Positions 3,195 through 55,776 of a stretch of DNA of 64,000 nucleotides are shown here, one piece after another. A model generated the notes under the pieces. It was given only the letters and a program-made list of their open reading frames with translations, did not search any database and had not been told where the DNA came from. Source of the stretch: Bacillota bacterium (GTDB taxonomy: Bacteria > Bacillota > Dethiobacteria > DTU022 > UBA8154); NCBI GenBank assembly GCA_030656575.1, contig JAUSPO010000030.1, positions 63,298 through 127,297 of the forward strand. Reading direction: 5' to 3'. Numbering within the stretch: position 1 is the first letter of the stretch; every line of letters begins with the position of its first letter. Made by a program: the position numbers and the translations under genes.

Positions 3195-3360
3195 CACGGG
3201 GACGGTTCCATCGTCTTCCCATTAGCTTAGGTATGGGGACACACCTCATTTTTCAAGTGGTATGGGGACACACCTCATTTTTCAAGTGGTATGGGGACAC
3301 ACCTCATTCAGAGGAATGTCCCCTATGGAATGTCCCCTATGGAATGTCCTCAAGTCCTTC
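3195..3360. repeat. degenerate, internally triplicated copy of the palindromic repeat element (hairpin GGGGACACACCTC...GAGGAATGTCCCC)
   Basis: cacggggacggttccatcgtcttccc matches the element at 55656-55680. It is followed by three copies of a 29-nt unit (gtatggggacacacctcatttttcaagtg) and two or three copies of gaatgtcccctatg. Confidence 0.6.
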
Positions 3361-9956: not shown

Positions 9957-10042
9957 CGGTGCCATGGGGACGGTTCGAGCGTCACCGTAGCGCAGCGAAG
10001 GACTTGGGGACATTCCTCTAAAAGAGGTGTGTCCCCTTACCA
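9957..10042 (+). repeat. left part of the palindromic repeat element (copy A), ending in hairpin GGGGACATTCCTC-taaaa-GAGGTGTGTCCCC then TTACCA; serves as the 5' exon of the intron
   Basis: Nearly identical (reverse complement) to 55689-55776. Confidence 0.7.
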
Positions 10043-11963
10043 GTGCGCCACGCATGGCGATTAACTTGGTGGTGAAAGTCCACTATGGGGGTCTGTAGTT
10101 ACCAACCATTAGCCAAGAGCAAGGGTGTCCATCGTGAGGTGGAATCTGAAGGAAGCTGGAGGCAAAATTCCGACCCAAGGAACACGAACATCATCAGGCA
10201 TAAGGTATGGGATGAGTTTGCTGGACAAAACGAAATCCAATAACTACACGGACATACCACTGTAAATGATGTGGGTACATGGAATGAAAGTGAATCGTCT
10301 TACCGTGGGAGGTCTCATGGACGTGAGGAGATGGAATTCGAATCACGGTTGAAACAAGATTTATCATGAGAAGTCAGCAGATACCATAGTACTCGATGAA
10401 GTCTACGTCGTCGAGGAAGGGTTGAACCTCAGGGGGTGAAAGTAAATGAATGTTACCGAGACAGAAGGAAAGTACAGCCAACCTCAGAGGGCTTCCGAAG
10501 GAAGCAGCAACGAGGGCTTACCGCAAAAGGATAGTGCGGAACACGAAAGATATGCGGGAGCGTACAATTCTGGGAGGATAACGGAAAACAACCTCACCGA
10601 TGCAAACAAGCCGAAGGAAAGATTACTTGAGGAAATATTGGACAATCAGAATATGAACAACGCATTCAAACGTGTCAAGTCCAATAAAGGAGCTCACGGA
10701 GTCGATGGGATGGGAGTAGATGAACTTCTACAATATCTCAAAGAAAACGGAGACCAACTCAGGCAATCAATTCTGGATGGGAAATACCATCCTAACCCCG
10801 TCAGAAGGGTAGAGATACCCAAAGAAAACGGGAAGAAAAGAAAATTGGGAATACCTACGGTAGTGGACCGAGTAATACAGCAGGCAATAGCCCAAGTGCT
10901 TACTCCCATCTTCGAGAAGCAGTTTTCAGACAACAGCTACGGGTTTCGACCCGGGCGGAGTGCTCACGATGCAATCAGGAAATGTCAGGACAACATAGAC
11001 GAAGGATACAAATATGTTGTTGACATGGACTTGGAAAAGTACTTCGACACAGTTAACCAAAGTAAGCTGGCAGAAGTATTATCCAGGACGATAAAAGATG
11101 GGCGCGTAATATCGCTCATCCATAAATATCTGAGAGCAGGAGTAATAGTCAAGCACAGTTTCGAAGAAACGGAAATCGGCGTACCACAGGGTGGACCACT
11201 CAGTCCAATTCTTAGCAACATCATGCTTAACGAACTGGACAAGGAACTCGAAAGAAGGGAACACAGGTTTGTCCGCTTCGCAGATGATATAGTCGTCTTC
11301 TGCAAAAGCAGTAGAAGTGCGAAACGCACACTTGAAAACATACTACCCTTCATCGAGAAGAAGCTATTCCTTAAAGTGAACAGAGAGAAAACGGTGGTTG
11401 ACTACGTAGGAAAAGTGAAATTTCTTGGGCTCTCGTTCTATCGATACAGAGGTAAAACGAGGGTCAGAATTCATCCCAAATCAATTGCAAAGATGAGAAA
11501 TAAAGTAAGAGAGCTTACTTCCAGAAGCAATGGAATGGGCAACACAGCCAGAGCTGAAAAGCTCAGACGCTATATTATGGGGTGGATTAACTACTTCAAG
11601 ATAGCGGACATGAAGAAGCTGATGACCATTACGGACGAATGGATGAGAAGGCGTATCCGCATGATTTACTGGAAGCAATGGAAACGAGTGAAGACAAGAG
11701 TTAAAATGCTAAGGTCACTCGGCATCCATGAACAGAAAGCATGGGAATATGCAAACACAAGAAAGGGCTACTGGAGAATCTCCAATAGCCCAATCATGTC
11801 CACATCCCTTGGAAACAATATCATCAAAGGATTTGGATACCTATTCTTTTCTGAGTACTATCGGCGAGTTACAGCGTAAACTGAGGAACCGCCGTGTACC
11901 GAACGGTACGCACGGTGGTGTGGGAGGTCGGCTACTCAAATAATGGGTAGCCTCCTACCCGAT
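10043..11963 (+). mobile_element. group II intron, 1921 nt, hairpin-targeting with an endonuclease-less RT (bacterial class C-like behaviour)
   Basis: 5' end is GTGCG and the 3' end is ...CCCGAT. A domain V-like hairpin (ccgtgtaccgaacggtacgcacgg) lies at about 11890-11915. The intron encodes the RT at 10446-11879. Removing 10043-11963 recreates the junction ccccttacca|tagatagtgggaag seen in the empty copy at 55.6 kb. Confidence 0.8.
10446..11879 (+). CDS. group II intron reverse transcriptase/maturase (no HNH endonuclease domain)
   Basis: RT blocks FRPGRSAHDA, VVDMDLEKYFDTV, GVPQGGPLSPILSNI and the YADD box FADDIVVF, followed by a maturase X domain. The C-terminus lacks Cys/His En motifs. 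Confidence 0.9.
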   Translation: MNVTETEGKYSQPQRASEGSSNEGLPQKDSAEHERYAGAYNSGRITENNLTDANKPKERLLEEILDNQNMNNAFKRVKSNKGAHGVDGMGVDELLQYLKENGDQLRQSILDGKYHPNPVRRVEIPKENGKKRKLGIPTVVDRVIQQAIAQVLTPIFEKQFSDNSYGFRPGRSAHDAIRKCQDNIDEGYKYVVDMDLEKYFDTVNQSKLAEVLSRTIKDGRVISLIHKYLRAGVIVKHSFEETEIGVPQGGPLSPILSNIMLNELDKELERREHRFVRFADDIVVFCKSSRSAKRTLENILPFIEKKLFLKVNREKTVVDYVGKVKFLGLSFYRYRGKTRVRIHPKSIAKMRNKVRELTSRSNGMGNTARAEKLRRYIMGWINYFKIADMKKLMTITDEWMRRRIRMIYWKQWKRVKTRVKMLRSLGIHEQKAWEYANTRKGYWRISNSPIMSTSLGNNIIKGFGYLFFSEYYRRVTA

Positions 11964-25516: not shown

Positions 25517-26545
25517 ATGTTCATGCAGAAAAAATTGTTACCAAAACGAATGCTTTATATAAGTTACTATCTTTTATTCTGCATTTTTGCCTTAAGCATC
25601 GCAACCTATTGTTACATGCTTTCTTTTGCCATGGAAATAACAATAAATGATGATGGAGATATATATTTGGTGGAATCGAAAGCGGTTTATGTGGCAGATT
25701 TGCTTGAGGAGCAGGGGATAGAAATAAGGCCGTTTGACAGGCTTTCACAATCTTTGGGAGACCCACTGGAAGAAGATATGCATATTTACATCAAGAGGGC
25801 TTTTCCCGTTGTAATAAAAACAGAACAGGGAAGCTTTGAGCATTATACCCATGCTGTCACTGTATGGGAGACTTTAAAAGAACTCGATTTTCTGCTGGCA
25901 GGCGGTTTTTCTGTTACTCCGGAATTGAACGAGCCCATCTCTCCGGGAGAAAATATTTCTATCTTACAGCATCTAACAGTTATGGAGGTCAGTTTGGAGG
26001 ATATTCCCTTTGCTGTTGAAAAAACAGAAGATCCAAATCTCTTAAAAGGAAAAATAACTACTCTCCAGGAAGGGACAGCAGGGCGCAGGGAACTTACTTT
26101 CAAAGTTGTTTATGCCGGCGATGAAGAACTATCCCGTGAGTTTATAGGCGAGTGTGTCATTGAAGAGCCGGTCAATTCTATTGTAGCCCTGGGGACAAAA
26201 GTTTCACCGTCTCCTTCTCCTCTGGTTATTGCTTCACGGGGAGAGAGCAATGAAGGAATTGCTTCATGGTATGGTGAGCAGTTCCATGGCAAAAAGACTA
26301 CAAGCGGAGAAGTATTTAACCAGAATGAATTCACTGCTGCTCACCGGAATCTGCCTTTTAACACTTATGTAAATGTTACCTTTTTAAAAACAGGCAAAAG
26401 CGTACTGGTCCGCATTAATGACCGGGGACCGGGCAGTAGAGACAGAATTATCGATCTTTCAAGGGCTGCAGCAGAAGCAATAGGCTTAAGGCCTCACGGA
26501 ATAGGGAAAGTGAGAATTGAAGTAGTGGATGTTAAGAAGAATTAA
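25517..26545 (+). CDS. YabE-like envelope protein with an RlpA-like double-psi beta-barrel C-terminal domain
   Basis: N-terminal TM segment and a DUF348-like region. The C-terminus ASWYGEQFHGKKTTSGEVF...VLVRINDRGP is RlpA/DPBB-like. Confidence 0.6.
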   Translation: MFMQKKLLPKRMLYISYYLLFCIFALSIATYCYMLSFAMEITINDDGDIYLVESKAVYVADLLEEQGIEIRPFDRLSQSLGDPLEEDMHIYIKRAFPVVIKTEQGSFEHYTHAVTVWETLKELDFLLAGGFSVTPELNEPISPGENISILQHLTVMEVSLEDIPFAVEKTEDPNLLKGKITTLQEGTAGRRELTFKVVYAGDEELSREFIGECVIEEPVNSIVALGTKVSPSPSPLVIASRGESNEGIASWYGEQFHGKKTTSGEVFNQNEFTAAHRNLPFNTYVNVTFLKTGKSVLVRINDRGPGSRDRIIDLSRAAAEAIGLRPHGIGKVRIEVVDVKKN

Positions 26546-26730: not shown

Positions 26731-27840
26731 ATGGACGAGAACGGTTCTGTTCCTTTATGTACGGAGGGGAATGAGGAGAGAAATAAATGGAAATGGAAGG
26801 ACAATAAGCGAAAAATTGTAAAAATTGCAAGTTTTGTGCTATTCACTGCCCTTGTGGTTTTCGCTTTTTATATGCAGCATTATAAGATGTTCGTAGTATT
26901 GGAAGGAAATGAAAAGAAGCAGTATTATACTTTTACTGAAACAGTAGGTGATTTTTTAGATGAGAAGGGCCTGAAAGCCGGTGATTACGATCAAGTAGTT
27001 CCCGGCAGAGACGAACCAATTCAAAGCGGGGATACAATTTCCATCAAAAAAGCAATACCCGTTACGCTGATCGTTGACAGGGATGTTAGGGAAACCTTTT
27101 CCACGGCAGTTGAGGATTTATTAAAGGAGAATTCATTGGAGTTGACAGAAGAAGACACAGTATCCCCTGCACTAAACCATATTCTGAGTCCAGGGGATCA
27201 GATAAAGGTCGCCCGGGTAATTAAAGAGATTGAAAGGGAGAAGGTATTCATACCATATAGCACTGTGAGAGTTTATAATCCTTATCTGGACCGAGGCATT
27301 GTCAAGGCAATCGAAGAAGGGTCAGAGGGTATAAAAGAAATTGTCAACGAAATTGTTAAAAGAGACGGCCTGGAAATTTCCAGAACAGCTGTTTCAACTG
27401 AGGTAGTTGAACAGCCTGTGAACAGAGTATTGGAATACGGCGAGAATACTTTTTTCTCACGTGGTGATCGGAACTATATCTTCGAGACAGTATTATATGT
27501 TTCTGCCACAGCATATTGCGCAGGGACCCCAGGGTCCGGATGTCCCGTGGATCACAGGGGCGCTTCCCATTGTACAGGGTTAAATAATGACGGCTATACC
27601 TATACAGGGATAAAAGCAGTGGCCGGGGATGGAAGTCTCACGTACCCCCATATTTTAGCAGTGGATCCTTCTGTTATACCCCTAAAGACTCTTGTCTATA
27701 TTGACGGTTATGGTTTTGCCCGGGCTGAAGATACAGGTAGTGCAATTAAGGAAAACAGCATTGATCTTCTTTTTGACCAGCATCATGATGCCTATATGTT
27801 TGGACGCAAACAATTAAAAGTGTACATACTCACAGAATAG
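26731..27840 (+). CDS. YabE-like protein (DUF348, G5, C-terminal 3D domain)
   Basis: TM segment, DUF348-like repeats, and a C-terminal 3D-domain pattern (ATAYCAG...HRGA...VAVDPSVIPLKTLVYI). Confidence 0.65.
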   Translation: MDENGSVPLCTEGNEERNKWKWKDNKRKIVKIASFVLFTALVVFAFYMQHYKMFVVLEGNEKKQYYTFTETVGDFLDEKGLKAGDYDQVVPGRDEPIQSGDTISIKKAIPVTLIVDRDVRETFSTAVEDLLKENSLELTEEDTVSPALNHILSPGDQIKVARVIKEIEREKVFIPYSTVRVYNPYLDRGIVKAIEEGSEGIKEIVNEIVKRDGLEISRTAVSTEVVEQPVNRVLEYGENTFFSRGDRNYIFETVLYVSATAYCAGTPGSGCPVDHRGASHCTGLNNDGYTYTGIKAVAGDGSLTYPHILAVDPSVIPLKTLVYIDGYGFARAEDTGSAIKENSIDLLFDQHHDAYMFGRKQLKVYILTE

Positions 27841-28003: not shown

Positions 28004-28201
28004 TTGTTGGGTAAGGTAAAATGGTTTAACAAAGAAAAGGGTTATGGGTTTATCGAAAGAGAGGATGGAGAAGATGTCTTCGTCCACTACTCTGCCATTC
28101 AGGAAGAAGGTTTTAAAAGCCTGAGCGAAGGGCAGGATGTTGAGTTTGATATCGTTGAAGGAAGTAGAGGTCCTCAGGCGGCTAATGTAGTTAAAGCATA
28201 G
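28004..28201 (+). CDS. csp: cold-shock protein, CspA family
   Basis: [14 protein letters not shown] (RNP1) and VFVHYSAI (RNP2). Confidence 0.9.
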
Positions 28202-28397: not shown

Positions 28398-28937
28398 ATG
28401 CAGATTAATATTCGGGGTAAAAATCTTGAAATTACTCCGGCACTACAGGACTACGTGGGAAAACGGCTGAGTAAACTGGAAAAATACTTGGATGATGCTC
28501 ATACAGATGCACAGGTTACTCTTAGTGTAGCTAAGGAAAACCACATTGTGGATGCTACAATTTCTATTGGTGGTTTATTGCTGCGGGGTGAGGAATCTAC
28601 CCAGGACATGTATGCTTCGATCGATTTAGTTGTTGATAAACTTGAGCGTCAGATGCATAAGTATAAGACCAGGATTAACCGTAAGCTTAGACAAACCGGG
28701 CTTAAGGAACTTAATGAACAATACATAAACAAGAAGCGGGAAGAAGAGGAAAAGGATCCCATTATTGTAAGGACAAAACGTTTTGTTATGAAACCAATGC
28801 CAGTGGAAGAGGCTCTGCTGCAATTAAACCTCCTCGGACATGATTTCTTTGTTTTCACCAATGCTGAATCAGAAGAAATTAACGTCCTTTACAAGCGGAA
28901 AGATGGTAATTACGGCCTCATTGGCCCCATGGAATAG
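28398..28937 (+). CDS. hpf: ribosome hibernation-promoting factor, long form
   Basis: MQINIRGKNLEITPALQDYV, 179 aa. Confidence 0.9.
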   Translation: MQINIRGKNLEITPALQDYVGKRLSKLEKYLDDAHTDAQVTLSVAKENHIVDATISIGGLLLRGEESTQDMYASIDLVVDKLERQMHKYKTRINRKLRQTGLKELNEQYINKKREEEEKDPIIVRTKRFVMKPMPVEEALLQLNLLGHDFFVFTNAESEEINVLYKRKDGNYGLIGPME

Positions 28938-28970: not shown

Positions 28971-28993
28971 TGCCGGCGGAATGCCGGTTTTTT
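28971..28993 (+). terminator. rho-independent terminator after hpf
   Basis: gccggc-ggaat-gccgg followed by tttttt. Confidence 0.45.
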
Positions 28994-29050
28994 ACTCATA
29001 AATATTATAGAACCCGGCGATGCTTTTTTTGCAGAAGGATGTGAAAAAAA

Positions 29051-30172
29051 GTGAAGGATAAGGTAAGTGTTGTTCTTTTTGAGGGAGGAGAACCGCTCAG
29101 CGAAATTGAAAAAGAACTTGTAGCTGTCCGTCAAGCTGTTTTGCTGGACAATATTATGAAGATGCAGCAAATACCTGAAGTTGGCGGTATTTATCTTCTT
29201 ACAAATTACCCTTTGTTAGCCGAAGAAGCAGCTGAGATGGGGGTTACAATCTGGAAAAACGAGATTCCAGAGGAAAAGTTTCATTTTGGCAATGAGCTTT
29301 CTAATCTAATTAACAGGGAAAAGTTGGAAAACATTTTCTATATGGGTGGGGCAAGTATTCCCCTTGTGACGGTTAGTGAGCTTCAGGAAATATGCCTTCT
29401 GCTGTTGAATTCTGAGTCCATTATCTATGCTAACAATGCTCAGTCGGCGGATATTATTGCCTTTACTCCAGGCAGCCTGATCAATCAGATTGAACCTCCT
29501 AAAATGGATAATATTTTAGGCATGACCTTACGGGACAGCACCGGTGTTCAGCAGAAGCTTTTTAAAAATACGGCAGGTTTATTGTTCGACCTGGATACTC
29601 CGGCAGATTTGCTTGTTTTGGCCGGCAGTCCATTTACAGGTCTTAGGGCGCGCCGTGTTTTAGATGGCCTGCAGCTTGATCTCTCCCGTTTGGACAAGGC
29701 CAAGGAAGTTCTTCGGGGAGATTACGAAGAAGCATTAATTTTAGGACGGGTGGGCGCACCGGTTATTGCCCGCATTAATCAAAATTTAAAACTGAGGCTG
29801 CGCATTTTTTCAGAAGAAAGAGGAATGAAGGCCCTTGGCAGGGAAGAAAGCGGCGAAGCAATTTCTCTGATGGGGTTTTTTCTCGAAGAAGTTGGCTTAA
29901 ACAAGTTTATTAAGTATCTTGAGAGGGTGGCCCAATGCGCCTTTTTGGATACGAGAGTACTTATGATACATTTGGGTCAAAGGCTCTCAGCCGAGGAACG
30001 TTTCCTTTCGGACCTCGGCCGCTGGCAGGAAATGAAGAACCCTGTTATGAGGGAGTTTACCAGGGCAGTCGTAGAATCAGAGATACCTATTCTCTGTGGA
30101 GGTCACTCCCTTGTCCTCGGGGGATTATGGGCTCTTGTGGACGAGATAGGCCCTACACATGATCACTGGTAA
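29051..30172 (+). CDS. hypothetical protein of unknown function, immediately upstream of and overlapping hisD
   Basis: 373 aa with no recognised motif. The stop overlaps the hisD region, so co-transcription is likely. Confidence 0.5.
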   Translation: MKDKVSVVLFEGGEPLSEIEKELVAVRQAVLLDNIMKMQQIPEVGGIYLLTNYPLLAEEAAEMGVTIWKNEIPEEKFHFGNELSNLINREKLENIFYMGGASIPLVTVSELQEICLLLLNSESIIYANNAQSADIIAFTPGSLINQIEPPKMDNILGMTLRDSTGVQQKLFKNTAGLLFDLDTPADLLVLAGSPFTGLRARRVLDGLQLDLSRLDKAKEVLRGDYEEALILGRVGAPVIARINQNLKLRLRIFSEERGMKALGREESGEAISLMGFFLEEVGLNKFIKYLERVAQCAFLDTRVLMIHLGQRLSAEERFLSDLGRWQEMKNPVMREFTRAVVESEIPILCGGHSLVLGGLWALVDEIGPTHDHW

Positions 30173-30233
30173 GTTAGATTTTAATTTTCGGGGTATTTCC
30201 AGTTACCCCCTGGGAAGGAGGTTACTGTTAATC

Positions 30234-31526
30234 GTGAAAAATTATGATTTGTCCAAGCTTACTGAGCAGCAGTGCAGGGATCTGCTGCGCCGTTCGGAGA
30301 TAGATATCTCAGAGTACTCTTCTATCGCACTGGAGGTCATTAATCGTGTGCGGGAGGAAGGGGATAATGCTGTTATAGAATATACGGCTAAATTTGACGG
30401 TGTTTCCCTGGGCGAAAAAGGTTTGCTAGTCTCAGAGCAGGAAATCGAAGAAGCTTATCAAAGGTTTGACACTAAGACAAAAGAAACTTTGCATTATGCC
30501 GCTGAAAATATAAAAAGATTTCATTTGGAACAGCTTCCTTCAGAGATGTGGATGAAAGAAATTGAAGAAGGTGTCCTGGCGGGGGAGAAAATTACTCCAA
30601 TTACAGATGTCTGTCTTTATGTTCCAAGAGGGAAGGGGAGCTTTCCCTCCGTGATGCTCATGTTAGGGATACCTGCAGTAATCGCGGGAGTTCCGCGAAT
30701 TGTGGTCTGTACGCCTCCCGGCATCGGGGGTGAAATAGACACGGCAACCCTTGCTGCGGCTCACATTGTGGGAGTTAAGGAAATATACAGGGTCGGTGGA
30801 ATGCAGGCAATTGCAGCGGTGGCCTATGGTACGGAAACGATTCCCCGCTGCCGCAAAGTAATCGGACCGGGCAATGCCTATGTTAATGCGGCGAAAAGAT
30901 TGCTCTATGGTGTCTTGGATGTGGGGCTTCCGGCAGGACCCAGTGAGGCCATTATTCTTGCAGACGAATTTGCCGACGTGCATACAGTATCCCTTGACCT
31001 TCTCATTGAAGCGGAGCACGGCCCGGATTCCGCCTCTCTGCTCGTTACGCATTCTAAAGAACTGGCAGAAAATGTAGAAAAATATATCCCCGAACTGATC
31101 AATAATTTGCCCTCTGAGAAACGGGGTTTTGTGGAGAAGGTCTTCAACAATTATGGAGGGATCGTTCTGACCGGGAGCATTGGAGAATCAATTAATTTTA
31201 TTAATGACTATGCTCCGGAACACCTTGAAATTTTAACCGCTGATCCTTTTTCCATGCTTCCCAAGATAAAAAATGCAGGAGAAATTTTAATGGGTCCTTA
31301 CACACCTATTACCCTCTGTAATTTTCTCCTGGGTCCAAATGCCATTCTTCCCACAGGTTCATTTGCAAAAACTTTTTCAGGAGTATCAGTCCACGATTTT
31401 CTAAAGCGTTCTTCTTTTGGCTATGTGACTGAGGATGGTTTTGCCAGAGTAAAGGAAAAAGCTGCGCATTTTGCGGAACTGGAAGGTTTTTGGGCTCATG
31501 CCATGGCTGTAAGAAAGAGAGTTTAA
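30234..31526 (+). CDS. hisD: histidinol dehydrogenase
   Basis: HisD-like body throughout, for example GNAYVNAAKR, LIEAEHGPDS and the metal/NAD motifs. Start assigned to GTG at 30234 behind GGAAGGAGG. Confidence 0.85.
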   Translation: MKNYDLSKLTEQQCRDLLRRSEIDISEYSSIALEVINRVREEGDNAVIEYTAKFDGVSLGEKGLLVSEQEIEEAYQRFDTKTKETLHYAAENIKRFHLEQLPSEMWMKEIEEGVLAGEKITPITDVCLYVPRGKGSFPSVMLMLGIPAVIAGVPRIVVCTPPGIGGEIDTATLAAAHIVGVKEIYRVGGMQAIAAVAYGTETIPRCRKVIGPGNAYVNAAKRLLYGVLDVGLPAGPSEAIILADEFADVHTVSLDLLIEAEHGPDSASLLVTHSKELAENVEKYIPELINNLPSEKRGFVEKVFNNYGGIVLTGSIGESINFINDYAPEHLEILTADPFSMLPKIKNAGEILMGPYTPITLCNFLLGPNAILPTGSFAKTFSGVSVHDFLKRSSFGYVTEDGFARVKEKAAHFAELEGFWAHAMAVRKRV

Positions 31527-31601
31527 ATTTGGGCAGGTATTTGAAAAAAAGGAAAGGGGGGAATCCGGCAAGAGAGCCCTTGGGTTTTTTACCGGAGAAG
31601 T

Positions 31602-32237
31602 ATGCAGGTAATATCAGAAAGAAAAACTGCTGAATCGCAAATCATTGCCAAAATTGATTTTGGACCCCGTTACGCAGATCCCAAAAAGGGATTAAATACG
31701 ACAATGCCATTTTTAAACCATATGATAGAACATGTGATCGCGCGGGGGGAGTTTAATCTGGAGGTTAATGTTGAATTAAAAGACTTTTACCTCTTTCATG
31801 TAGTTTGTGAGGATATAGGGATCACGATTGGTAAAGCTATGAAAGAATATGTTGAATCAAGATTGGATGATGGGATCTCAGGATATGGTTCTGCATTTGC
31901 AATTATTGATGAGGCCCTTTCTCAGTCAGTGATTAGCTTTGAAAACAGGGCTTATCTTGATTTTTACCATCCTGAAGTTGTAATTCCTACTCAGACAGAA
32001 AATACTAATTCGGAAGATCTGAGGACTTTTTTTGAGGGCTTTGTGCAAGGCGCTTCCTGTACGCTGCACTTAAATATTCTCAAAGGAATCAATGGACACC
32101 ACATTTGGGAAGCAGCATTCCGTTCCTTTGGAGAGGCACTTTCCAAAGCATTGAGTTTAAGAGAATGGAGAAAAGGGATCACTTCAGGTGTTGCCGGCCC
32201 CATAAAGACTAAGATTTCTAAAAGTGATAATAGGTAA
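31602..32237 (+). CDS. hisB: imidazoleglycerol-phosphate dehydratase
   Basis: 211 aa; IGPD-like metal motifs (LNHMIEHV, INGHHIWEAAFRSFGEAL). Confidence 0.65.
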   Translation: MQVISERKTAESQIIAKIDFGPRYADPKKGLNTTMPFLNHMIEHVIARGEFNLEVNVELKDFYLFHVVCEDIGITIGKAMKEYVESRLDDGISGYGSAFAIIDEALSQSVISFENRAYLDFYHPEVVIPTQTENTNSEDLRTFFEGFVQGASCTLHLNILKGINGHHIWEAAFRSFGEALSKALSLREWRKGITSGVAGPIKTKISKSDNR

Positions 32238-32262
32238 GGGGACACACCTCATCGAGGAATGT
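32227..32262. repeat. solo copy of the repeat hairpin GGGGACACACCTC-atc-GAGGAATGTCCCC, directly after the hisB stop
   Basis: Direct read; same hairpin as in the 3.3-kb, 10.0-kb and 55.7-kb copies. Confidence 0.55.
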
Positions 32263-32291
32263 CCCCTATGGAATGCCTAATGGATGTCCCT

Positions 32292-33500
32292 ATGCTTCGA
32301 GTCTGGAGGAAATATAATTTGTCTAAAGAATCAGAGCATCCCAAAAAAGTTATCTTCGATATGGATGGCGTCATTTTAAGTGAAGATTGCTACTGGAATA
32401 CTGCCGCCCTTGTGGTCTGGGAATTGCTTTACAGCGATCGGTATCTGGGCAGGCCCCCCGAAGCAGGCCTCCCAACCTTTAAAACCGATCTTTCTCCTCA
32501 GGAAATTTCGGCAGTCAGACGGGTTGTCTTCCAGGATGAGCAGGTAATTTCCTTTTTTAAAAAACGTGCAGTTAATTCCAACTGGGATCTGGCTTTTTAT
32601 ACTTTTGTTTTTCAATTAACCTTGCTTTTTCAAGAGATAAGCGGCAGGGATTTAGCAGGTGGAGTTCAGGTTGAAGATCATGGGATTATGCTGAAGCATC
32701 TCTCTCACCTTTCCAGCCTTTTATCATCGCGGGATGATTGGAGTCCTTCATTTGCTGCAGTCATAGAGAACTGGGCAGGTGAGGCCAGGTGGAAGGATTT
32801 AATGGGAAAACTTTCTTTACAGGTGCCCGGAAGTTTTAAGGGGCTTGTGGAGAATTCTTACAAAGCCTCCTCTCCTTTATGGGAAGAAGTAAGGGACATT
32901 TTTCAGGAGTGGTATTTCGGAGAGGAACAATATAGGGAATTATTCAGCAGGGAGCCTGGCTCTCCCGGGAAAAAGGGGCTTATGCATGAGGAAGAACCTC
33001 TGCTTCCTGTAAGCAAAGTGAAAGATACCCTGCGCCAGCTGAAAGAGAAGGGCATGGTCCTGGGAATAGCAACAGGACGGCCCTATAACGAACTTAACCT
33101 TCCTCTTCAGAAAATGAATATCTGGGAATCATTCGATAAAAAATCTGTAGTAACCTTCAACGATGTGCAGAATGCGGAACAGGCATCCAGCCATAACTCA
33201 GATAATATTTCCCTGGGCAAGCCTCATCCCTTTTCCTTTCTAAAGGCTTACTGGGGGGACAGGTTTAGCGACGATGATCTGCTTTCTTCCACATTTCCCC
33301 GCATAGAACCGGGAAAATGCTGGGCTGTGGGGGACTCCATGGCTGATCTCCTTGCCGCAAAAAAATCGGGGGCTTCCTTTATTGGGGTTTTAACAGGACT
33401 CAGAGGCGCAGTAGATAAAAGTGCCTTCGAAAAAGAGGGCGCCACAGCAGTGCTGCCGGATGTAACTTTTCTTCCACGTTTTTTTGAGGACAATAAATAA
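32292..33500 (+). CDS. HAD-superfamily hydrolase with a large cap insertion (candidate histidinol-phosphatase given its his-gene context)
   Basis: Motif I FDMDGVIL near the proposed N-terminus, a GIATGRP-containing segment, and GDSMADLLAAKKSGA. The start is moved to the ATG at 32292 because the upstream part of the track ORF is a translation of the repeat hairpin. Confidence 0.55.
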   Translation: MLRVWRKYNLSKESEHPKKVIFDMDGVILSEDCYWNTAALVVWELLYSDRYLGRPPEAGLPTFKTDLSPQEISAVRRVVFQDEQVISFFKKRAVNSNWDLAFYTFVFQLTLLFQEISGRDLAGGVQVEDHGIMLKHLSHLSSLLSSRDDWSPSFAAVIENWAGEARWKDLMGKLSLQVPGSFKGLVENSYKASSPLWEEVRDIFQEWYFGEEQYRELFSREPGSPGKKGLMHEEEPLLPVSKVKDTLRQLKEKGMVLGIATGRPYNELNLPLQKMNIWESFDKKSVVTFNDVQNAEQASSHNSDNISLGKPHPFSFLKAYWGDRFSDDDLLSSTFPRIEPGKCWAVGDSMADLLAAKKSGASFIGVLTGLRGAVDKSAFEKEGATAVLPDVTFLPRFFEDNK

Positions 33501-33568
33501 CCCTGCCTGATTAAGACGGCAGGGTTACTGCTTTTATTCTTGCTGAAACGAGTTCAAATACAATGTAA

Positions 33569-34051
33569 TCAGTATTTAGGTTTCAGGCGCAGTGACGCTG
33601 TGAGAAGCGCTATCCCAAAGGCGAGGACAAGATAGTTGGCCTGTTGTGCTCTCTCAAATCCTTTTAAGATAATGGGGCCCACAGAACTGGCTAAGCCGAC
33701 AGAGATATATCCGGGTATAACTGCGAGGGCAACCTGAATGAGGATAAAGGAAATAATTGCCAGTATTGCCGGGGGTAAAAAAATTTGAAAGTTACCATAG
33801 AGGTAATAAAGGGCAATAAGACAGAACCCCATAAAAGACAGTGACAACCAGAAAATATTTCTAACGATATTTGCCTCTATACTGGCAAGAAATACCGCTG
33901 CCTCCGGTGGATAAGGTGTTGCTTCCGTTACGACGATTAGGGTATCTGATGCAATCATACCGACTAAAAAAGTGGTTGTTACAGCTGTAATTAGGGCAGC
34001 AGCGAAACCAACAGACAATAGTATTTTCAATAAAAGTTTGATGCCTTGCAC
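33569..34051 (-). CDS. small integral membrane protein, four predicted TM helices
   Basis: Hydrophobic 160-aa ORF. Confidence 0.45.
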   Translation of the reverse strand: MQGIKLLLKILLSVGFAAALITAVTTTFLVGMIASDTLIVVTEATPYPPEAAVFLASIEANIVRNIFWLSLSFMGFCLIALYYLYGNFQIFLPPAILAIISFILIQVALAVIPGYISVGLASSVGPIILKGFERAQQANYLVLAFGIALLTASLRLKPKY

Positions 34052-34286: not shown

Positions 34287-36944
34287 ATGGGTTTATTCAC
34301 AAAAATATTTGGAGATCCCCACGTAAAAGAAGCAAAAAAGCTTCAGCGTTATGTTGAAGAGGTAAACTCTTATGAAGAGCGCATGAAAGCTCTTCAGGAA
34401 AACCAGTTTTCAGAGGTTACCGCTCAATTGAAAAAAAAGCTTGCTGACGGGTCAACCCTGGATGATATCCTGCCCGAAGCTTTTGCCCTGGCTCGTGAGG
34501 CTTCCTGGCGAGCTCTTGGCATGAGGCCCTTTGATGTGCAGGTATTAGGTGGCATTGTTCTGCATCAGGGCCGTATTGCAGAGATGAAGACCGGTGAAGG
34601 GAAAACTCTTGCTGCAACAATGCCTGCTTATCTCAATGCCCTAACCGGTAAAGGGGTTCACATTGTTACGGTGAATGATTACCTGGCCAGGCGGGACAGT
34701 GACTGGATGAGGCCTGTCTACGAACTTCTCGGGCTTAAGGTTGGACTTATTGTCCACGACATGACCCCTGCAGAGCGCAGGGAGCATTATAGCGCAGATA
34801 TTACCTATGGGACAAACAATGAATTTGGTTTCGACCATTTGCGTGATAATATGGTCATTTACCGGGAACATCTGGTCCAGCGTCCCCTGAACTATGCAAT
34901 TGTTGATGAAGTTGACAGTATCCTCATAGATGAAGCCCGGACACCATTAATCATCTCCGGGGCTGCGGAAAAGTCTACGGAAAAATATGAAAAGTTTGCT
35001 GCTTTTGTTCCCCGTCTGAAAAATGAAGAGGACTATACCATAGATGAAAAAGCTCACACAGTAATTTTAACCGAAGAAGGGGTTGAACGTGTTGAAAAGC
35101 TTCTCAATATAGATAACCTCTCTGATGAAAGCAATATGGAGGATTCCCATCATTTAAACCAGGCTTTGAAGGCTTATGGACTTATGAAAAGAGACAGGGA
35201 CTACGTGGTGAAAGACGGGGAAGTTGTCATTGTTGATGAGTTTACAGGCCGGCTTATGTTCGGCAGGCGTTACAGTGACGGATTACACCAGGCTATTGAA
35301 GCCAAAGAAAAGGTAAAGGTGGCCCGGGAAAGCCGTACTCTCGCCTCCATTACATTTCAGAATTATTTCAGAATGTATGAGAAGTTGTCCGGCATGACAG
35401 GAACTGCTGTCACAGAGGAAGATGAATTCCGAAAAATCTATGGTATGGATGTAGTGATTATTCCCACCAATGAAGAGATGATCAGAAGAGATTTGCCCGA
35501 CCTTATTTATCGCACCGAACAGGGCAAGTTTAATGCCGTAGTGGATGAAATAGTCAGTCGTCATCAAAATGGGCAGCCTGTACTGGTGGGCACAATCACC
35601 ATTGAGAAATCAGAGGAACTAAGTGGCCTCCTTTCAAAGAAGGGTGTTCGTCACCAGGTCCTTAATGCAAAATATCACGAAAAAGAGGCTGAAATAATTT
35701 CTCAGGCAGGTCAAAAAGAAGCCGTAACAATTGCCACAAATATGGCCGGACGAGGCACGGATATTGTCCTTGGCGGAAATGCTGAATCAGAGTTGGAGAA
35801 AATTAAAGATGACGCCGATTTAACCGATGCAGAAAAAGAGAAAAAAATAGAACAAATTCGCGCACTCTGGAAAGTCCGTCACGATGAAGTGGTACAACTG
35901 GGCGGACTGCATATTATCGGAACTGAGAGGCATGAGTCCAGGCGTATTGATAATCAGCTCCGGGGGCGTTCCGGCCGCCAGGGAGACCCTGGTTCTTCCC
36001 TCTTTTTTGTATCCCTTGAAGATGATCTGATGCGGCTGTTTGGCGGGGACAATGTTAAATCCATGATGGAGAGATTTGGTATGGAAGAAGAAGTTCCTAT
36101 TGAACATCCCATCATCAGCAAAGCCATAGAGAACGCACAGAAGAAGGTAGAAGGACGAAACTTTGAGATCCGTAAACATGTTCTTGATTATGATGATGTT
36201 CTTAACCAGCAAAGGCAAGTGATCTATGGGCAGCGACGTCAGGTTTTGGAGGGTGAAAACCTGCGCGATAATATTATGAAAATGATTGAAGACCTGGTGG
36301 ATAAAGCTCTTTCTACCTATGCAGACGAAAAGATAGATGAAGAGTTATGGGATTTAAACGGGCTCTTAACTCATGCTGAAAGGATCTATCTTCCCCCCGG
36401 GCACTTCAGCTTAAAGGATTTTGAGGAACTCTCCAGGGAAGAGTTGAAGGAGATAATTGTCCAGGCAGCAGATCACGCCTATCATGAACGGGAGAAGGAA
36501 ATAGGTTCGGAAACGATACGTGAACTGGAACGGGTTATCCTTTTGCGTACCGTAGACAGTAAGTGGATGGACCATATTGATGCAATGCATGAGCTTCGCC
36601 AGGGGGTATGGCTGCGGGCCTATGGTCAGCGCGATCCCCTTGTGGAATATAAATACGAAGCTTATGAAATGTTCAGTGAGATGATTAACTCAATTCAGGA
36701 AGAAGTGGTGCGGCTCTTATTCCACCTGCAAGTGAGCCGGAATCCTGAACGTCAAAGAGTGGCCACACCGATGGTAACACTTAGGGGCGATGGCACTGGT
36801 GCCATGGATGAAGCGAGAGGCACAAGAAATGTTACTCCTGAAAAGAAGAAGCCCGTAACTGTTACTAAAGTGGGCCGAAATGAACCATGCACCTGCGGCA
36901 GTGGTAAAAAATTTAAAAAGTGCTGTGGTAAGGATCTTCATTAG
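34287..36944 (+). CDS. secA: preprotein translocase ATPase SecA
   Basis: 885 aa with DEAD-like motifs and the C-terminal zinc finger [14 protein letters not shown]. Confidence 0.95.
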
Positions 36945-55647: not shown

Positions 55648-55776
55648 GCTAAGCCACGGGGACGGTTCCATCGTCTTCCCACTATCTATGGTAAGGGGAC
55701 ACACCTCTTTTAGAGGAATGTCCCCAAGTCCTCCGCTGCGCTGCGGTGACGCTCGAACCGTCCCCATGGCACCGCT
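55648..55776. repeat. intact, intron-free copy (copy B) of the roughly 130-bp palindromic repeat element, inverted relative to copy A; an unoccupied group II intron homing site
   Basis: Terminal inverted repeats ccacggggacggttc / gaaccgtccccatgg, with the internal hairpin ggggacacacctc-tttta-gaggaatgtcccc. The reverse complement matches 9957-10042 plus 11964-12012 contiguously. Confidence 0.75.

What the first reader, a model, noticed from the sequence alone, without database searches (positions are those of the whole stretch)
29051..33500. Partial his cluster (unknown 373-aa gene, hisD, hisB, HAD hydrolase) without hisG/Z/H/A/F/I
Only hisD and hisB are present. They are flanked upstream by an uncharacterised 373-aa protein whose stop overlaps hisD, and downstream by a HAD hydrolase with a large cap, which may be the missing histidinol-phosphatase. 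The unknown ORF is translationally coupled to hisD, so it is a candidate for a new his-pathway step, for example an alternative HisG/HisZ-like or regulatory function. The repeat hairpin sits exactly between hisB and the HAD gene.
Basis: inference. Interest (0 to 1): 0.5.

Follow-up and report, generated by a model that had tools for sequence, protein, structure and literature searches.

The report
Variant histidine end-module beside unrelated gene
The unknown 373-aa gene is not a histidine gene: it belongs to a widespread uncharacterised family that always follows the ribosome-hibernation gene hpf. The three genes after it form a conserved module for the last steps of histidine synthesis, built from unusual enzyme variants and a plausible candidate for the often-missing histidinol-phosphate phosphatase.

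Summary
The four ORFs exist, but two details of the observation do not hold. hisD starts at about 30234 (430-431 aa), about 60 nt after the 373-aa ORF (X) ends, so there is no overlap. The HAD gene starts at TTG 32319 (393 aa); its supposed first 20 codons are repeat DNA.

hisD'-hisB'-HAD recurs as a module in Dethiobacteria, three Clostridia loci and Sulfoacidibacillus. In Thermicanus aegyptius the hisD'-hisB' pair closes an operon that carries hisZ-G-H-A-F-IE, so the pair most likely acts in histidine synthesis.

Both enzymes are distinct subfamilies with remodelled metal sites. HisD' has Q259E, D360N and H367A. IGPD' has lost Mn ligands H74 and H145 and all four phosphate-site residues differ.

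The large-cap HAD (PDB 1QYI family, function unknown) is a reasonable but unproven histidinol-phosphatase candidate.

The parts
28398..28937 (+). hpf (ribosome hibernation-promoting factor, long form). It is the conserved upstream partner of X.
   Evidence: PF02482 and PF16321; TIGR00741 104 bits. Found upstream of X in 80 of 81 loci.
28972..28995 (+). Terminator-like hairpin plus T-run after hpf.
   Evidence: GCCGGCGGAATGCCGGT followed by TTTTTT. This is a consensus match only.
29051..30172 (+). X: 373-aa protein of an uncharacterised family. Residues 1-195 form a CofC/FbiD-like nucleotidyltransferase fold. Residues 196-373 form a conserved alpha/beta domain with no known relative.
30234..31526 (+). 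hisD': a variant histidinol dehydrogenase of 430 aa. The true start is GTG 30234, not ATG 30159.
   Evidence: TIGR00069 467 bits. The 430/431-aa forms are in databases and the 455-aa form is not. 62.6% identical to the Thermicanus his-operon HisD. Q259E, D360N, Y361F (Y in one sequence) and H367A in all 25 partners of IGPD'.
31602..32237 (+). hisB': a variant imidazoleglycerol-phosphate dehydratase of 211 aa.
   Evidence: PF00475 119.6 bits, but below every NCBIfam HisB cut-off. H74V and H145T (Mn ligands); Q51H, H55R, R99G and K177R. 55.7% identical to the Thermicanus his-operon IGPD.
32237..32267 (.). Solo copy of a lineage-specific palindromic repeat (REP/MITE-like). It is not a conserved regulatory hairpin.
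   Evidence: 4 copies in the window against 0 expected. In relative L006 a copy sits between hisD' and hisB' instead. No Rfam match.
32319..33500 (+). Large-cap HAD phosphatase of 393 aa, start TTG 32319. It is the candidate histidinol-phosphate phosphatase.
   Evidence: HAD_2, Hydrolase and Hydrolase_like domains. P0390 is 100% identical over 393 aa. PDB 1QYI 'hypothetical protein' matches at E 1.7e-48. Homologues follow hisD'-hisB' in at least 4 lineages.
33499..33540 (.). Terminator-like hairpin (AACCCTGCC...GGCAGGGTT) plus T-rich tail. It lies between the HAD gene and the convergent membrane-protein gene.
   Evidence: (I3).

Best explanation
**Layout.** The locus is a mosaic: hpf | X | hisD'-hisB'-HAD | secA.

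**X.**
- X belongs to a widespread, uncharacterised Bacillota family whose conserved partner is hpf, not his genes.
- It has a CofC/FbiD-like nucleotidyltransferase fold and a novel C-terminal alpha/beta domain rich in invariant Arg, Glu, His and Gly.
- My inference is that it binds or transfers a nucleotide onto a small phosphorylated or acidic molecule. Its physiological role, possibly linked to stationary phase or ribosome hibernation, is unknown.

**The his module.** In one Dethiobacteria clade a three-gene module was inserted between X and secA. Because there is a terminator-like hairpin after hpf and another after the HAD gene, with none in between, the module is probably transcribed together with X. 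The module supplies late steps of histidine synthesis:
- IGPD' dehydrates imidazoleglycerol phosphate.
- A transaminase encoded elsewhere makes histidinol phosphate.
- The large-cap HAD removes the phosphate (inferred).
- HisD' oxidises histidinol to histidine with NAD+.

**The variants.** HisD' and IGPD' are co-inherited variant subfamilies with remodelled metal and substrate sites.

**What is shown and what is inferred.** Homology, gene order, distribution and the residue substitutions are shown. The enzymatic activities, the HAD substrate and co-transcription are inferred.
For: **X and its distribution**
- hpf lies upstream in 80 of 81 loci. hisD' lies downstream in 18 of 77, and only where X is at least 57% identical to the window copy.
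- The hpf-X pairing holds down to 30-35% identity.
- In two loci X is followed directly by secA.

**X fold**
- The AF2 model has pLDDT 91.7.
- A profile of the family matches KdsB at 2.5e-4 and FbiD at 3.5e-4, with the DxDTPxDL motif aligned.

**The his module**
- In Thermicanus aegyptius the operon is hisZ-G-H-A-F-IE-hisD'-hisB', with no other hisD or hisB in it.
- The window proteins are 62.6% and 55.7% identical to those two.
- The hisD'-hisB'-HAD triple also occurs in L087, L088, L091 and L092.
- The HADs are homologous to each other: E 5.6e-72 against L087 and 4.3e-25 against L088.
- In HisD', E326, H327, H262, E414 and H419 are kept. The last residue of the segment corresponding to the HpsN-specific motif is Phe, not His (PMC11382572).
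- In IGPD', E21, E173 and 6 of 8 Mn ligands are kept (PMC4509728).
- The HAD catalytic motifs are intact.
- HAD enzymes have been recruited as histidinol-phosphatases independently several times (PMC10804674).
Against: - No other his gene lies in the window or within 10 kb in any Dethiobacteria locus. I could not check whether these genomes encode the rest of the pathway or a second, canonical hisD/hisB.
- Both enzymes have lost canonical ligand residues: Zn ligands Q259 and D360 plus H367 in HisD', and Mn ligands H74 and H145 plus all four phosphate-site residues in IGPD'. This would also fit a changed substrate.
- hisC is absent from the module.
- Homologues of the HAD at about 35% identity in Brevibacillus and Kroppenstedtia, and the homologue behind PDB 1QYI, show no his linkage that I could find. 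The Brevibacillus copy lies near serA and serC.
- X and the module share a strand with no terminator between them, so a clade-specific functional tie cannot be excluded.
Confidence: 0.62

Rival explanations
1. One reading: X is a new histidine-pathway enzyme or regulator (HisG/HisZ-like), translationally coupled to hisD.
For: In the Dethiobacteria clade X is always immediately upstream of hisD' on the same strand (18 loci). No terminator-like site was found between them. A nucleotidyltransferase-like fold is not absurd for a pathway that starts from ATP and PRPP.
Against: - 59 of 77 loci with X have no his gene nearby.
- The invariant partner of X is hpf.
- The overlap is a start-codon artefact.
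- X has no HisG or HisZ similarity by sequence or fold.
- The same his pair occurs without X in Thermicanus, Petroclostridium, Sulfoacidibacillus, L091 and L092.
Confidence: 0.05
2. The hisD'-hisB'-HAD module is a paralogous pathway acting on a histidine-like but different substrate. It would perform dehydration, dephosphorylation and four-electron oxidation of an amino- or hydroxy-alcohol that is not histidinol. The remodelled metal and substrate sites would then reflect new specificity.
For: - The substitutions are subfamily-wide and sit exactly at ligand positions: HisD' Q259E, D360N and H367A in 25 of 25 sequences; IGPD' H74V/L, H145T/A, H55R, R99G/A and K177R in all 121, and Q51H in 102 of 121.
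- IGPD' falls below every curated HisB cut-off.
- The module has no hisC and is isolated from other his genes in most loci.
- The HisD family already contains non-histidinol enzymes, such as HpsN (PMC11382572).
Against: - In Thermicanus the pair occupies the hisD/hisB slots of an operon that carries hisZ-G-H-A-F-IE and has no other copy of either.
- The HisD' change Gln to Glu together with Asp to Asn keeps the net ligand chemistry.
- The catalytic residues of both enzymes are intact.
- HisD' lacks the HpsN signature His.
Confidence: 0.2
3. The HAD is a general or different phosphatase (for example phosphoserine or a sugar phosphate) that sits next to the his genes by chance. The real histidinol-phosphatase is encoded elsewhere, for example a PHP-type HisK.
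For: Homologues in Brevibacillus (next to resDE, about 2 kb from serA and serC) and in Kroppenstedtia are not his-linked. In the aligned his-linked members and in 1QYI the cap motifs (NSNWD, QEWY(L/F)G; FQRFYLG in L088) are conserved, which suggests one common substrate class for the whole family. Thermicanus has no such HAD after hisB'.
Against: The adjacency to hisD'-hisB' recurs in lineages where the surrounding genes differ completely. In Petroclostridium it persists despite an inserted chemoreceptor gene.
Confidence: 0.3

Closest known systems
Histidinol dehydrogenase HisD (TIGR00069 / PF00815; E. coli 1KAE, Brucella 4G07)
   Same: Full-length homology: 293 bits to 4G07 and 467 bits on TIGR00069. 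Catalytic Glu326/His327, ligand His262 and trans-subunit Glu414/His419 are kept. An orthologue lies in a his operon.
   Different: Gln259 is Glu, Asp360 is Asn and His367 is Ala in every member of the subfamily examined; Tyr361 is Phe in all but one. It is not HpsN-like: the last residue of the HpsN motif G-R-Y-A/S-H is Phe here (PMC11382572).
Imidazoleglycerol-phosphate dehydratase (PF00475; Arabidopsis IGPD2 4MU0/4QNK)
   Same: Same fold family and the same length. Glu21, Glu173, His47, His73, Glu77, His169, His170 and Arg121 are conserved. An orthologue closes the Thermicanus his operon.
   Different: One ligand of each Mn site is lost (His74 to Val/Leu; His145 to Thr/Ala). The phosphate site is rebuilt: Gln51 to His, His55 to Arg, Arg99 to Gly, Lys177 to Arg. 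It scores below all NCBIfam HisB equivalog cut-offs, and PGAP calls it hypothetical.
HAD-superfamily histidinol-phosphate phosphatases (E. coli HisB-N; P. aeruginosa PA0335/paHisN; archaeal toHisN/nmHisN)
   Same: Same superfamily chemistry, with the DxD, T, K and GDxxxD motifs present. It is genomically linked to his genes. There is precedent for repeated independent recruitment of HADs to this step (PMC10804674).
   Different: It has a cap of about 220 residues inserted after motif I, which none of the known enzymes has. It makes only a weak sub-threshold match to HAD-IIIA (26 bits against 44.6). Its closest solved relative is the uncharacterised 1QYI. Its activity is untested.
CofC / FbiD (2-phospho-L-lactate or PEP guanylyltransferase, F420 biosynthesis; 2I5E, 6BWG) and the MobA-like NTP-transferase fold
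   Different: No Pfam CofC hit. The Asp of the 'GD.P' motif is Gly/Ser/Ala in X. The N-terminal Lys/Arg loop is replaced by F-E-G-G. X has an extra 180-aa domain of unknown fold relatives. Its neighbourhood is hpf and secA, not F420 genes.

Membership tests
HisD (histidinol dehydrogenase) | Profile score above the curated equivalog cut-off | tested here: met
   TIGR00069 467.3 bits against a cut-off of 243.8; PF00815 499.5 bits.
HisD (histidinol dehydrogenase) | Canonical Zn ligands Gln259, His262, Asp360 and His419' (E. coli numbering) | tested here: not met
   The residues are E, H, N, H in the window and in all 25 subfamily members, against Q, H, D, H in three PDB HisDs. A swapped amide/carboxylate pair could still bind metal; that is my inference.
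HisD (histidinol dehydrogenase) | Catalytic Glu326/His327 | tested here: met
   The APEHLE motif is conserved.
HisD (histidinol dehydrogenase) | Genomic association with the histidine pathway | tested here: met
   An orthologue at 62.6% identity lies in the Thermicanus operon hisZ-G-H-A-F-IE-D'-B'.
HpsN (DHPS-3-dehydrogenase) | G-R-Y-A/S-H motif with a sulfonate-binding His (PMC11382572) | tested here: not met
   The window has G-K-G-S-F at that position.
IGPD / HisB | Pfam gathering score | tested here: met
   PF00475 119.6 bits against 27.
IGPD / HisB | NCBIfam HisB equivalog cut-offs | tested here: not met
   The best is NF002114 at 114.2 against 189; all 13 matching models are below cut-off.
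IGPD / HisB | Eight Mn ligands: His47, His73, His74, Glu77, His145, His169, His170, Glu173 (PMC4509728) | tested here: not met
   6 of 8 are kept. His74 is Val/Leu and His145 is Thr/Ala in 121 of 121 subfamily sequences.
IGPD / HisB | Phosphate site Gln51, His55, Arg99, Lys177 | tested here: not met
   The residues are H, R, G, R. Basic character is partly retained.
IGPD / HisB | Catalytic Glu21 and Glu173 | tested here: met
   Glu173 is conserved in 121 of 121 sequences and Glu21 in 118 of 121; the other 3 have a gap at that column.
HAD phosphatase superfamily | Motifs I-IV (DxD, S/T, K, GDxxxD) | tested here: met
   FDMDGV, GIATGRP, LGKPHP and VGDSMAD are present in the alignment. Pfam HAD_2, Hydrolase and Hydrolase_like are above cut-off.
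HisB-N type histidinol-phosphatase (HAD-IIIA, capless) | HAD-IIIA profile and no C1 cap | tested here: not met
   TIGR01662 26.4 bits against 44.6; bifunctional HisB NF003937 is not hit by this protein. A cap of about 220 aa lies between motifs I and II.
Histidinol-phosphate phosphatase (function) | Hydrolysis of L-histidinol phosphate, or complementation of a hisN/hisB-N/hisJ mutant | not testable with these tools
   Only gene-neighbourhood evidence is available.
CofC/FbiD guanylyltransferase (for X) | Fold | tested here: met
CofC/FbiD guanylyltransferase (for X) | Family profile match and conserved acidic metal-binding residues | tested here: inconclusive
   No Pfam hit at E<=10. The family profile matches FbiD at 3.5e-4. 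DxDTPxDL is retained, but FbiD's 'LQGD-LP' Asp aligns to G/S/A in X.
CofC/FbiD guanylyltransferase (for X) | Association with F420 genes (cofD/E/G/H) | tested here: not met
   No such genes were identified beside X: the called genes of seven annotated loci include none, and tblastn of the held loci, run with window-neighbourhood queries only and not with F420 genes, shows hpf and secA as the neighbours. This was not tested genome-wide.

The most novel reading that the evidence does not exclude
Two non-excluded readings go beyond 'ordinary his genes'.

(a) hisD'-hisB'-HAD is a co-evolved, horizontally spreading alternative end-module of histidine synthesis. Its dehydratase and dehydrogenase would use differently built, perhaps differently metallated, active sites. 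Its phosphatase would be a fifth, independent invention of histidinol-phosphatase, from the 1QYI large-cap HAD family. In the more radical form, the module acts on a non-histidine substrate.

(b) X is a new two-domain nucleotidyltransferase-like enzyme functionally tied to the ribosome hibernation factor HPF in hundreds of Bacillota species.

The probability given is for at least the phosphatase assignment, or an HPF-linked function of X, proving true and new.
Probability: 0.4. Interest if true: 0.6.

Novelty: new variant of a known kind. Interest (0 to 1): 0.4.

Why it matters
- **The phosphatase gap.** Histidinol-phosphate phosphatase is the single most frequent unexplained gap in amino-acid biosynthesis annotation. 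It is missing in 20% of prototrophs in GapMind 2026 (10.1101/2024.10.14.618325). A large-cap HAD that travels with hisD'-hisB' in several Bacillota lineages is a concrete, cheaply testable candidate, and it has a solved homologue (1QYI).
- **Annotation.** The HisD' and IGPD' subfamilies show that residues treated as invariant metal ligands can be replaced in enzymes that sit in a his operon. PGAP currently leaves this IGPD' as 'hypothetical', which creates false pathway gaps.
- **Enzymology.** IGPD is a herbicide target, so an active site built differently is of mechanistic interest.
- **X.** It is a large unannotated family (at least 578 species, no Pfam model) with a strikingly constant position after hpf. 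Its link to histidine is an accident of insertion in one clade.

Tried and rejected
- **Searches with X.** Sequence searches against Pfam (to E 10), NCBIfam and PDB found nothing usable. The only PDB hit was a designed helical bundle at E 0.11, which I rejected.
- **The 209-aa gene after X in Contubernalis.** I tested whether it is a degenerate IGPD. It is not (BLASTP E 5.6).
- **The search for related loci.** It failed on the very diverse alignment A2 because there was no conserved stretch. It was redone with A1.
- **AFDB50 fold search.** It was unavailable.
- **Regulatory RNA.** Rfam found no T-box, leader or other RNA in the locus; the only window hits are group II intron domains at 10128-10422.
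- **The hairpin as a regulatory element or terminator.** Rejected. It has no T-run, it is one of four repeat copies, and in relative L006 it sits in a different gap.
- **Literature.** No paper was found on histidine synthesis in Dethiobacter or on 1QYI.
- **HpsN-type function for HisD'.** Considered and rejected on the motif test (PMC11382572).

Full report
**1. What is in the sequence**

Between hpf (28398-28937) and secA (34287-36944) lie four same-strand ORFs.
- The first, X (29051-30172, GTG start, 373 aa), has no Pfam or NCBIfam match, even at E<=10. It equals NCBI MDO9534200.1, 'hypothetical protein Q7J85_02450', from a 'Bacillota bacterium' MAG contig of 146 kb.
- The second is a HisD homologue: PF00815 499.5 bits, and TIGR00069 467 bits against a cut-off of 243.8.
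- The third is an IGPD-family protein: PF00475 119.6 bits.
- The fourth is a HAD hydrolase.

tblastn with HisZ, G, H, A, F and IE from a related operon finds nothing in the window. Ten window ORFs of 337-494 aa were scanned, and none is a HisC-like aminotransferase. The 'partial his cluster' is therefore real.

**2. Corrections to the observation**

The overlap of X with hisD depends on taking ATG 30159 as the hisD start.
- The resulting 455-aa protein is absent from a 15-billion-sequence collection. The 430-aa form (GTG 30234) and NCBI's 431-aa form are present.
- Orthologues are 430-435 aa.
- GGAGG lies 12 nt before GTG 30234.
- X and hisD are thus about 60 nt apart, and there is no coupling by overlap.

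The HAD ORF was called from ATG 32259. The database protein is 393 aa and starts at TTG 32319, which is preceded by GGAGG.

The hairpin at 32237-32267 is one of four copies in the window of a palindromic element, GGGGACACACCTC-N3-5-GAGGAATGTCCCC, against 0 expected in 100 shuffles. In the closest relative that carries the element, L006, a copy sits between hisD and the IGPD gene instead. This is a mobile REP/MITE-like element, not a conserved regulatory hairpin. Rfam finds no RNA family in the locus.

Terminator-like hairpins follow hpf (28972-28995) and the HAD gene (33499-33540), with none in between. X and the three his genes are therefore probably one transcript. That is my inference.

**3. 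X is linked to hpf, not to histidine**

The X family is large: 522 representatives at 50% clustering and relatives in at least 578 species genomes.
- hpf lies just upstream on the same strand in 80 of 81 loci that have enough upstream sequence.
- hisD follows X in only 18 of 77 loci, all with X at least 57% identical to the window copy (one Dethiobacteria clade).
- Where X is 30-56% identical (59 loci), no his gene is present.
- In many of those loci X is followed directly by secA.
- In Contubernalis and others it is followed by a protein of about 210 aa with no Pfam hit, plus a MASE9/HD-GYP protein. That 210-aa protein is unrelated to IGPD.
- In the most distant member examined (30% identity) the hpf-X pair persists while everything downstream differs.

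Conversely, the same hisD-IGPD pair occurs without X in five other lineages.

**4. What X looks like**

An AlphaFold model built from 40 homologues is confident (pLDDT 91.7, pTM 0.89).
- Residues 1-195 form a GT-A/MobA-like nucleotidyltransferase fold.
- A profile of the family reaches KdsB (E 2.5e-4) and FbiD (E 3.5e-4). The near-invariant DxDTPxDL of X aligns with FbiD's DVDTPADL.
- FbiD's 'GD.P' aspartate aligns with Gly/Ser/Ala in X, and the N-terminal loop of X is F-E-G-G rather than Lys/Arg-rich.

I therefore describe X as a CofC/FbiD-like fold fused to a novel domain, with an unknown substrate. My best guess is nucleotide binding or transfer to a small phosphorylated acid, with a role tied to hpf. 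This is inference only.

**5. The three his genes are a conserved module built from variant enzymes**

*The IGPD-like protein.*
- It scores below the cut-off of all 13 NCBIfam HisB models that match it (best 114 against 189), and NCBI annotates it as 'hypothetical'.
- Its close relatives (50-55% identity) are not confined to Dethiobacteria.
- In Thermicanus aegyptius the orthologue (55.7% identity) is the last gene of hisZ-hisG-hisH-hisA-hisF-hisIE-hisD-IGPD. The neighbouring HisD is 62.6% identical to the window's.
- In Petroclostridium sp. X23, two other Clostridia contigs and Sulfoacidibacillus thermotolerans the arrangement is hisD-IGPD-HAD, with one inserted chemoreceptor gene in Petroclostridium.
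- Those HADs are homologous to the window's (33% identity, E 5.6e-72; 28% identity, E 4.3e-25).

*Active-site changes in IGPD'.* Residues were mapped on Arabidopsis IGPD2. The ligand list was verified in PMC4509728: Mn1 is bound by His47, His74, His169 and Glu173; Mn2 by His73, Glu77, His145 and His170; the phosphate site is Gln51, His55, Arg99 and Lys177. In all 121 subfamily sequences:
- His74 is Val/Leu and His145 is Thr/Ala (Val in two);
- His55 is Arg, Arg99 is Gly (Ala in three) and Lys177 is Arg;
- Gln51 is His in 102 of the 121;
- His47, His73, Glu77, Arg121, His169, His170 and Glu173 are retained in all 121, and Glu21 in 118 (the other three have a gap at that column).

*Active-site changes in HisD'.* In all 25 HisD partners, Gln259 is Glu, Asp360 is Asn and His367 is Ala; Tyr361 is Phe in 24 of the 25. 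His262, Glu326, His327, Glu414 and His419 are kept. Three PDB HisDs show the canonical residues. The enzyme lacks the His of the HpsN-specific motif described in PMC11382572 (GKGSF here).

*Reading.* HisD' and IGPD' are distinct, co-inherited subfamilies with remodelled metal and substrate sites. Because they occupy the hisD and hisB slots of an operon that carries hisZ-G-H-A-F-IE, the most economical reading is that they still catalyse the canonical reactions. The Gln/Asp to Glu/Asn swap in HisD' preserves one carboxylate and one amide. A changed substrate cannot be excluded, and I give that reading about 0.2.

**6. The HAD**

- All four catalytic motifs are present: FDMDGV, GIATGRP, GKPHP and GDSMAD. 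A cap of about 220 residues follows motif I.
- It is not a HisB-N (HAD-IIIA) type enzyme: TIGR01662 scores 26 bits against 44.6.
- Its closest solved relative is PDB 1QYI, a 384-aa 'hypothetical protein' (E 1.7e-48).
- Homologues at about 35% identity in Brevibacillus (after resDE, about 2 kb from serA and serC) and Kroppenstedtia are not his-linked. The family as a whole therefore cannot be assigned.
- Its recurrent position after hisD'-hisB' in lineages with otherwise unrelated neighbourhoods makes histidinol-phosphate phosphatase the best guess.
- This fits the documented repeated recruitment of HAD enzymes to this step (PMC10804674). It also fits the fact that this step is the commonest remaining gap in prototroph genomes, at 20% (10.1101/2024.10.14.618325).

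**7. Verdict**

The idea that X is a histidine-pathway gene is refuted by its distribution. The HAD-as-phosphatase idea is supported by gene neighbourhood but untested.
- What is really there is an insertion of a variant end-of-pathway histidine module next to a conserved hpf-associated gene of unknown function.
- Open points:
  - I could not check whether these genomes carry the rest of the pathway or a second, canonical hisD/hisB.
  - The enzymatic activities of HisD', IGPD' and the HAD are inferred, not tested.
  - The function of X is unknown.
- Interest is moderate (0.4). I classify it as a new variant of a known kind.

Noticed in passing
window 3293-3323, 10006-10036, 32238-32266, 55695-55725; L006 973-1003 and 12710-12740: A family of 29-31-nt palindromic elements (GGGGACACACCTC..GAGGAATGTCCCC, with an asymmetric 2-nt mismatch that gives orientation). 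There are 4 copies against 0 expected. Copies 2 and 4 share a further inverted flank of about 40 nt (AAGTCCTTCGCTGCGC..GACGCTCGAACCGTCCCC), which suggests a larger MITE-like element. Copy 1 carries tandem TATGGAATGTCCCC units.
   Followed up: partly
window 10128-10422 (RNA domains) and ORF 10446-11879: A group II intron (Rfam RF02001 145.6 bits; RF01998 49.5 bits) with a 477-aa ORF, presumably the reverse transcriptase. It starts about 90 nt after palindrome copy 2, so the palindrome may be its homing-site hairpin. The 10-12 kb bin also has the window's highest AT skew (0.26).
   Followed up: no
L001 11297-13449; L004 9209-11401; L059, L066-L084: In many lineages X is followed by a conserved protein of about 210 aa with no Pfam hit ('Y') and a MASE9/HD-GYP protein before secA. 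This is an alternative insertion at the same site as the his module.
   Followed up: partly
L030 11215-14229; L052 11284-14361: SecA in the Syntrophomonadaceae-like group is 1004-1025 aa, against 885 aa in the window. The extra length appears to come from an insertion of about 120 aa in the N-terminal half.
   Followed up: no
window 31602-32237: NCBI's pipeline names this IGPD-family protein 'hypothetical protein' (MDO9534202.1), while JGI names close relatives IGPD. The subfamily falls between curated model cut-offs and would create a false hisB gap in pathway reconstructions.
   Followed up: yes
L089 10001-11131 (Brevibacillus brevis): The large-cap HAD homologue lies directly after resD-resE and about 2 kb from divergently oriented serA and serC. 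This raises the alternative that the family acts on phosphoserine-like substrates.
   Followed up: no
window 33569-34051 (- strand): A 160-aa multi-pass membrane protein with no family match lies between the HAD gene and secA. It is conserved at this position in only some relatives (L006, L007, L012, L015).
   Followed up: no
window 25517-26545 and 26731-27840: Two paralogous G5/3D-type (YabE/Rpf-like) secreted proteins and a cold-shock protein (28004-28201) precede hpf. The CSD-hpf-X order is conserved in most related loci.
   Followed up: partly
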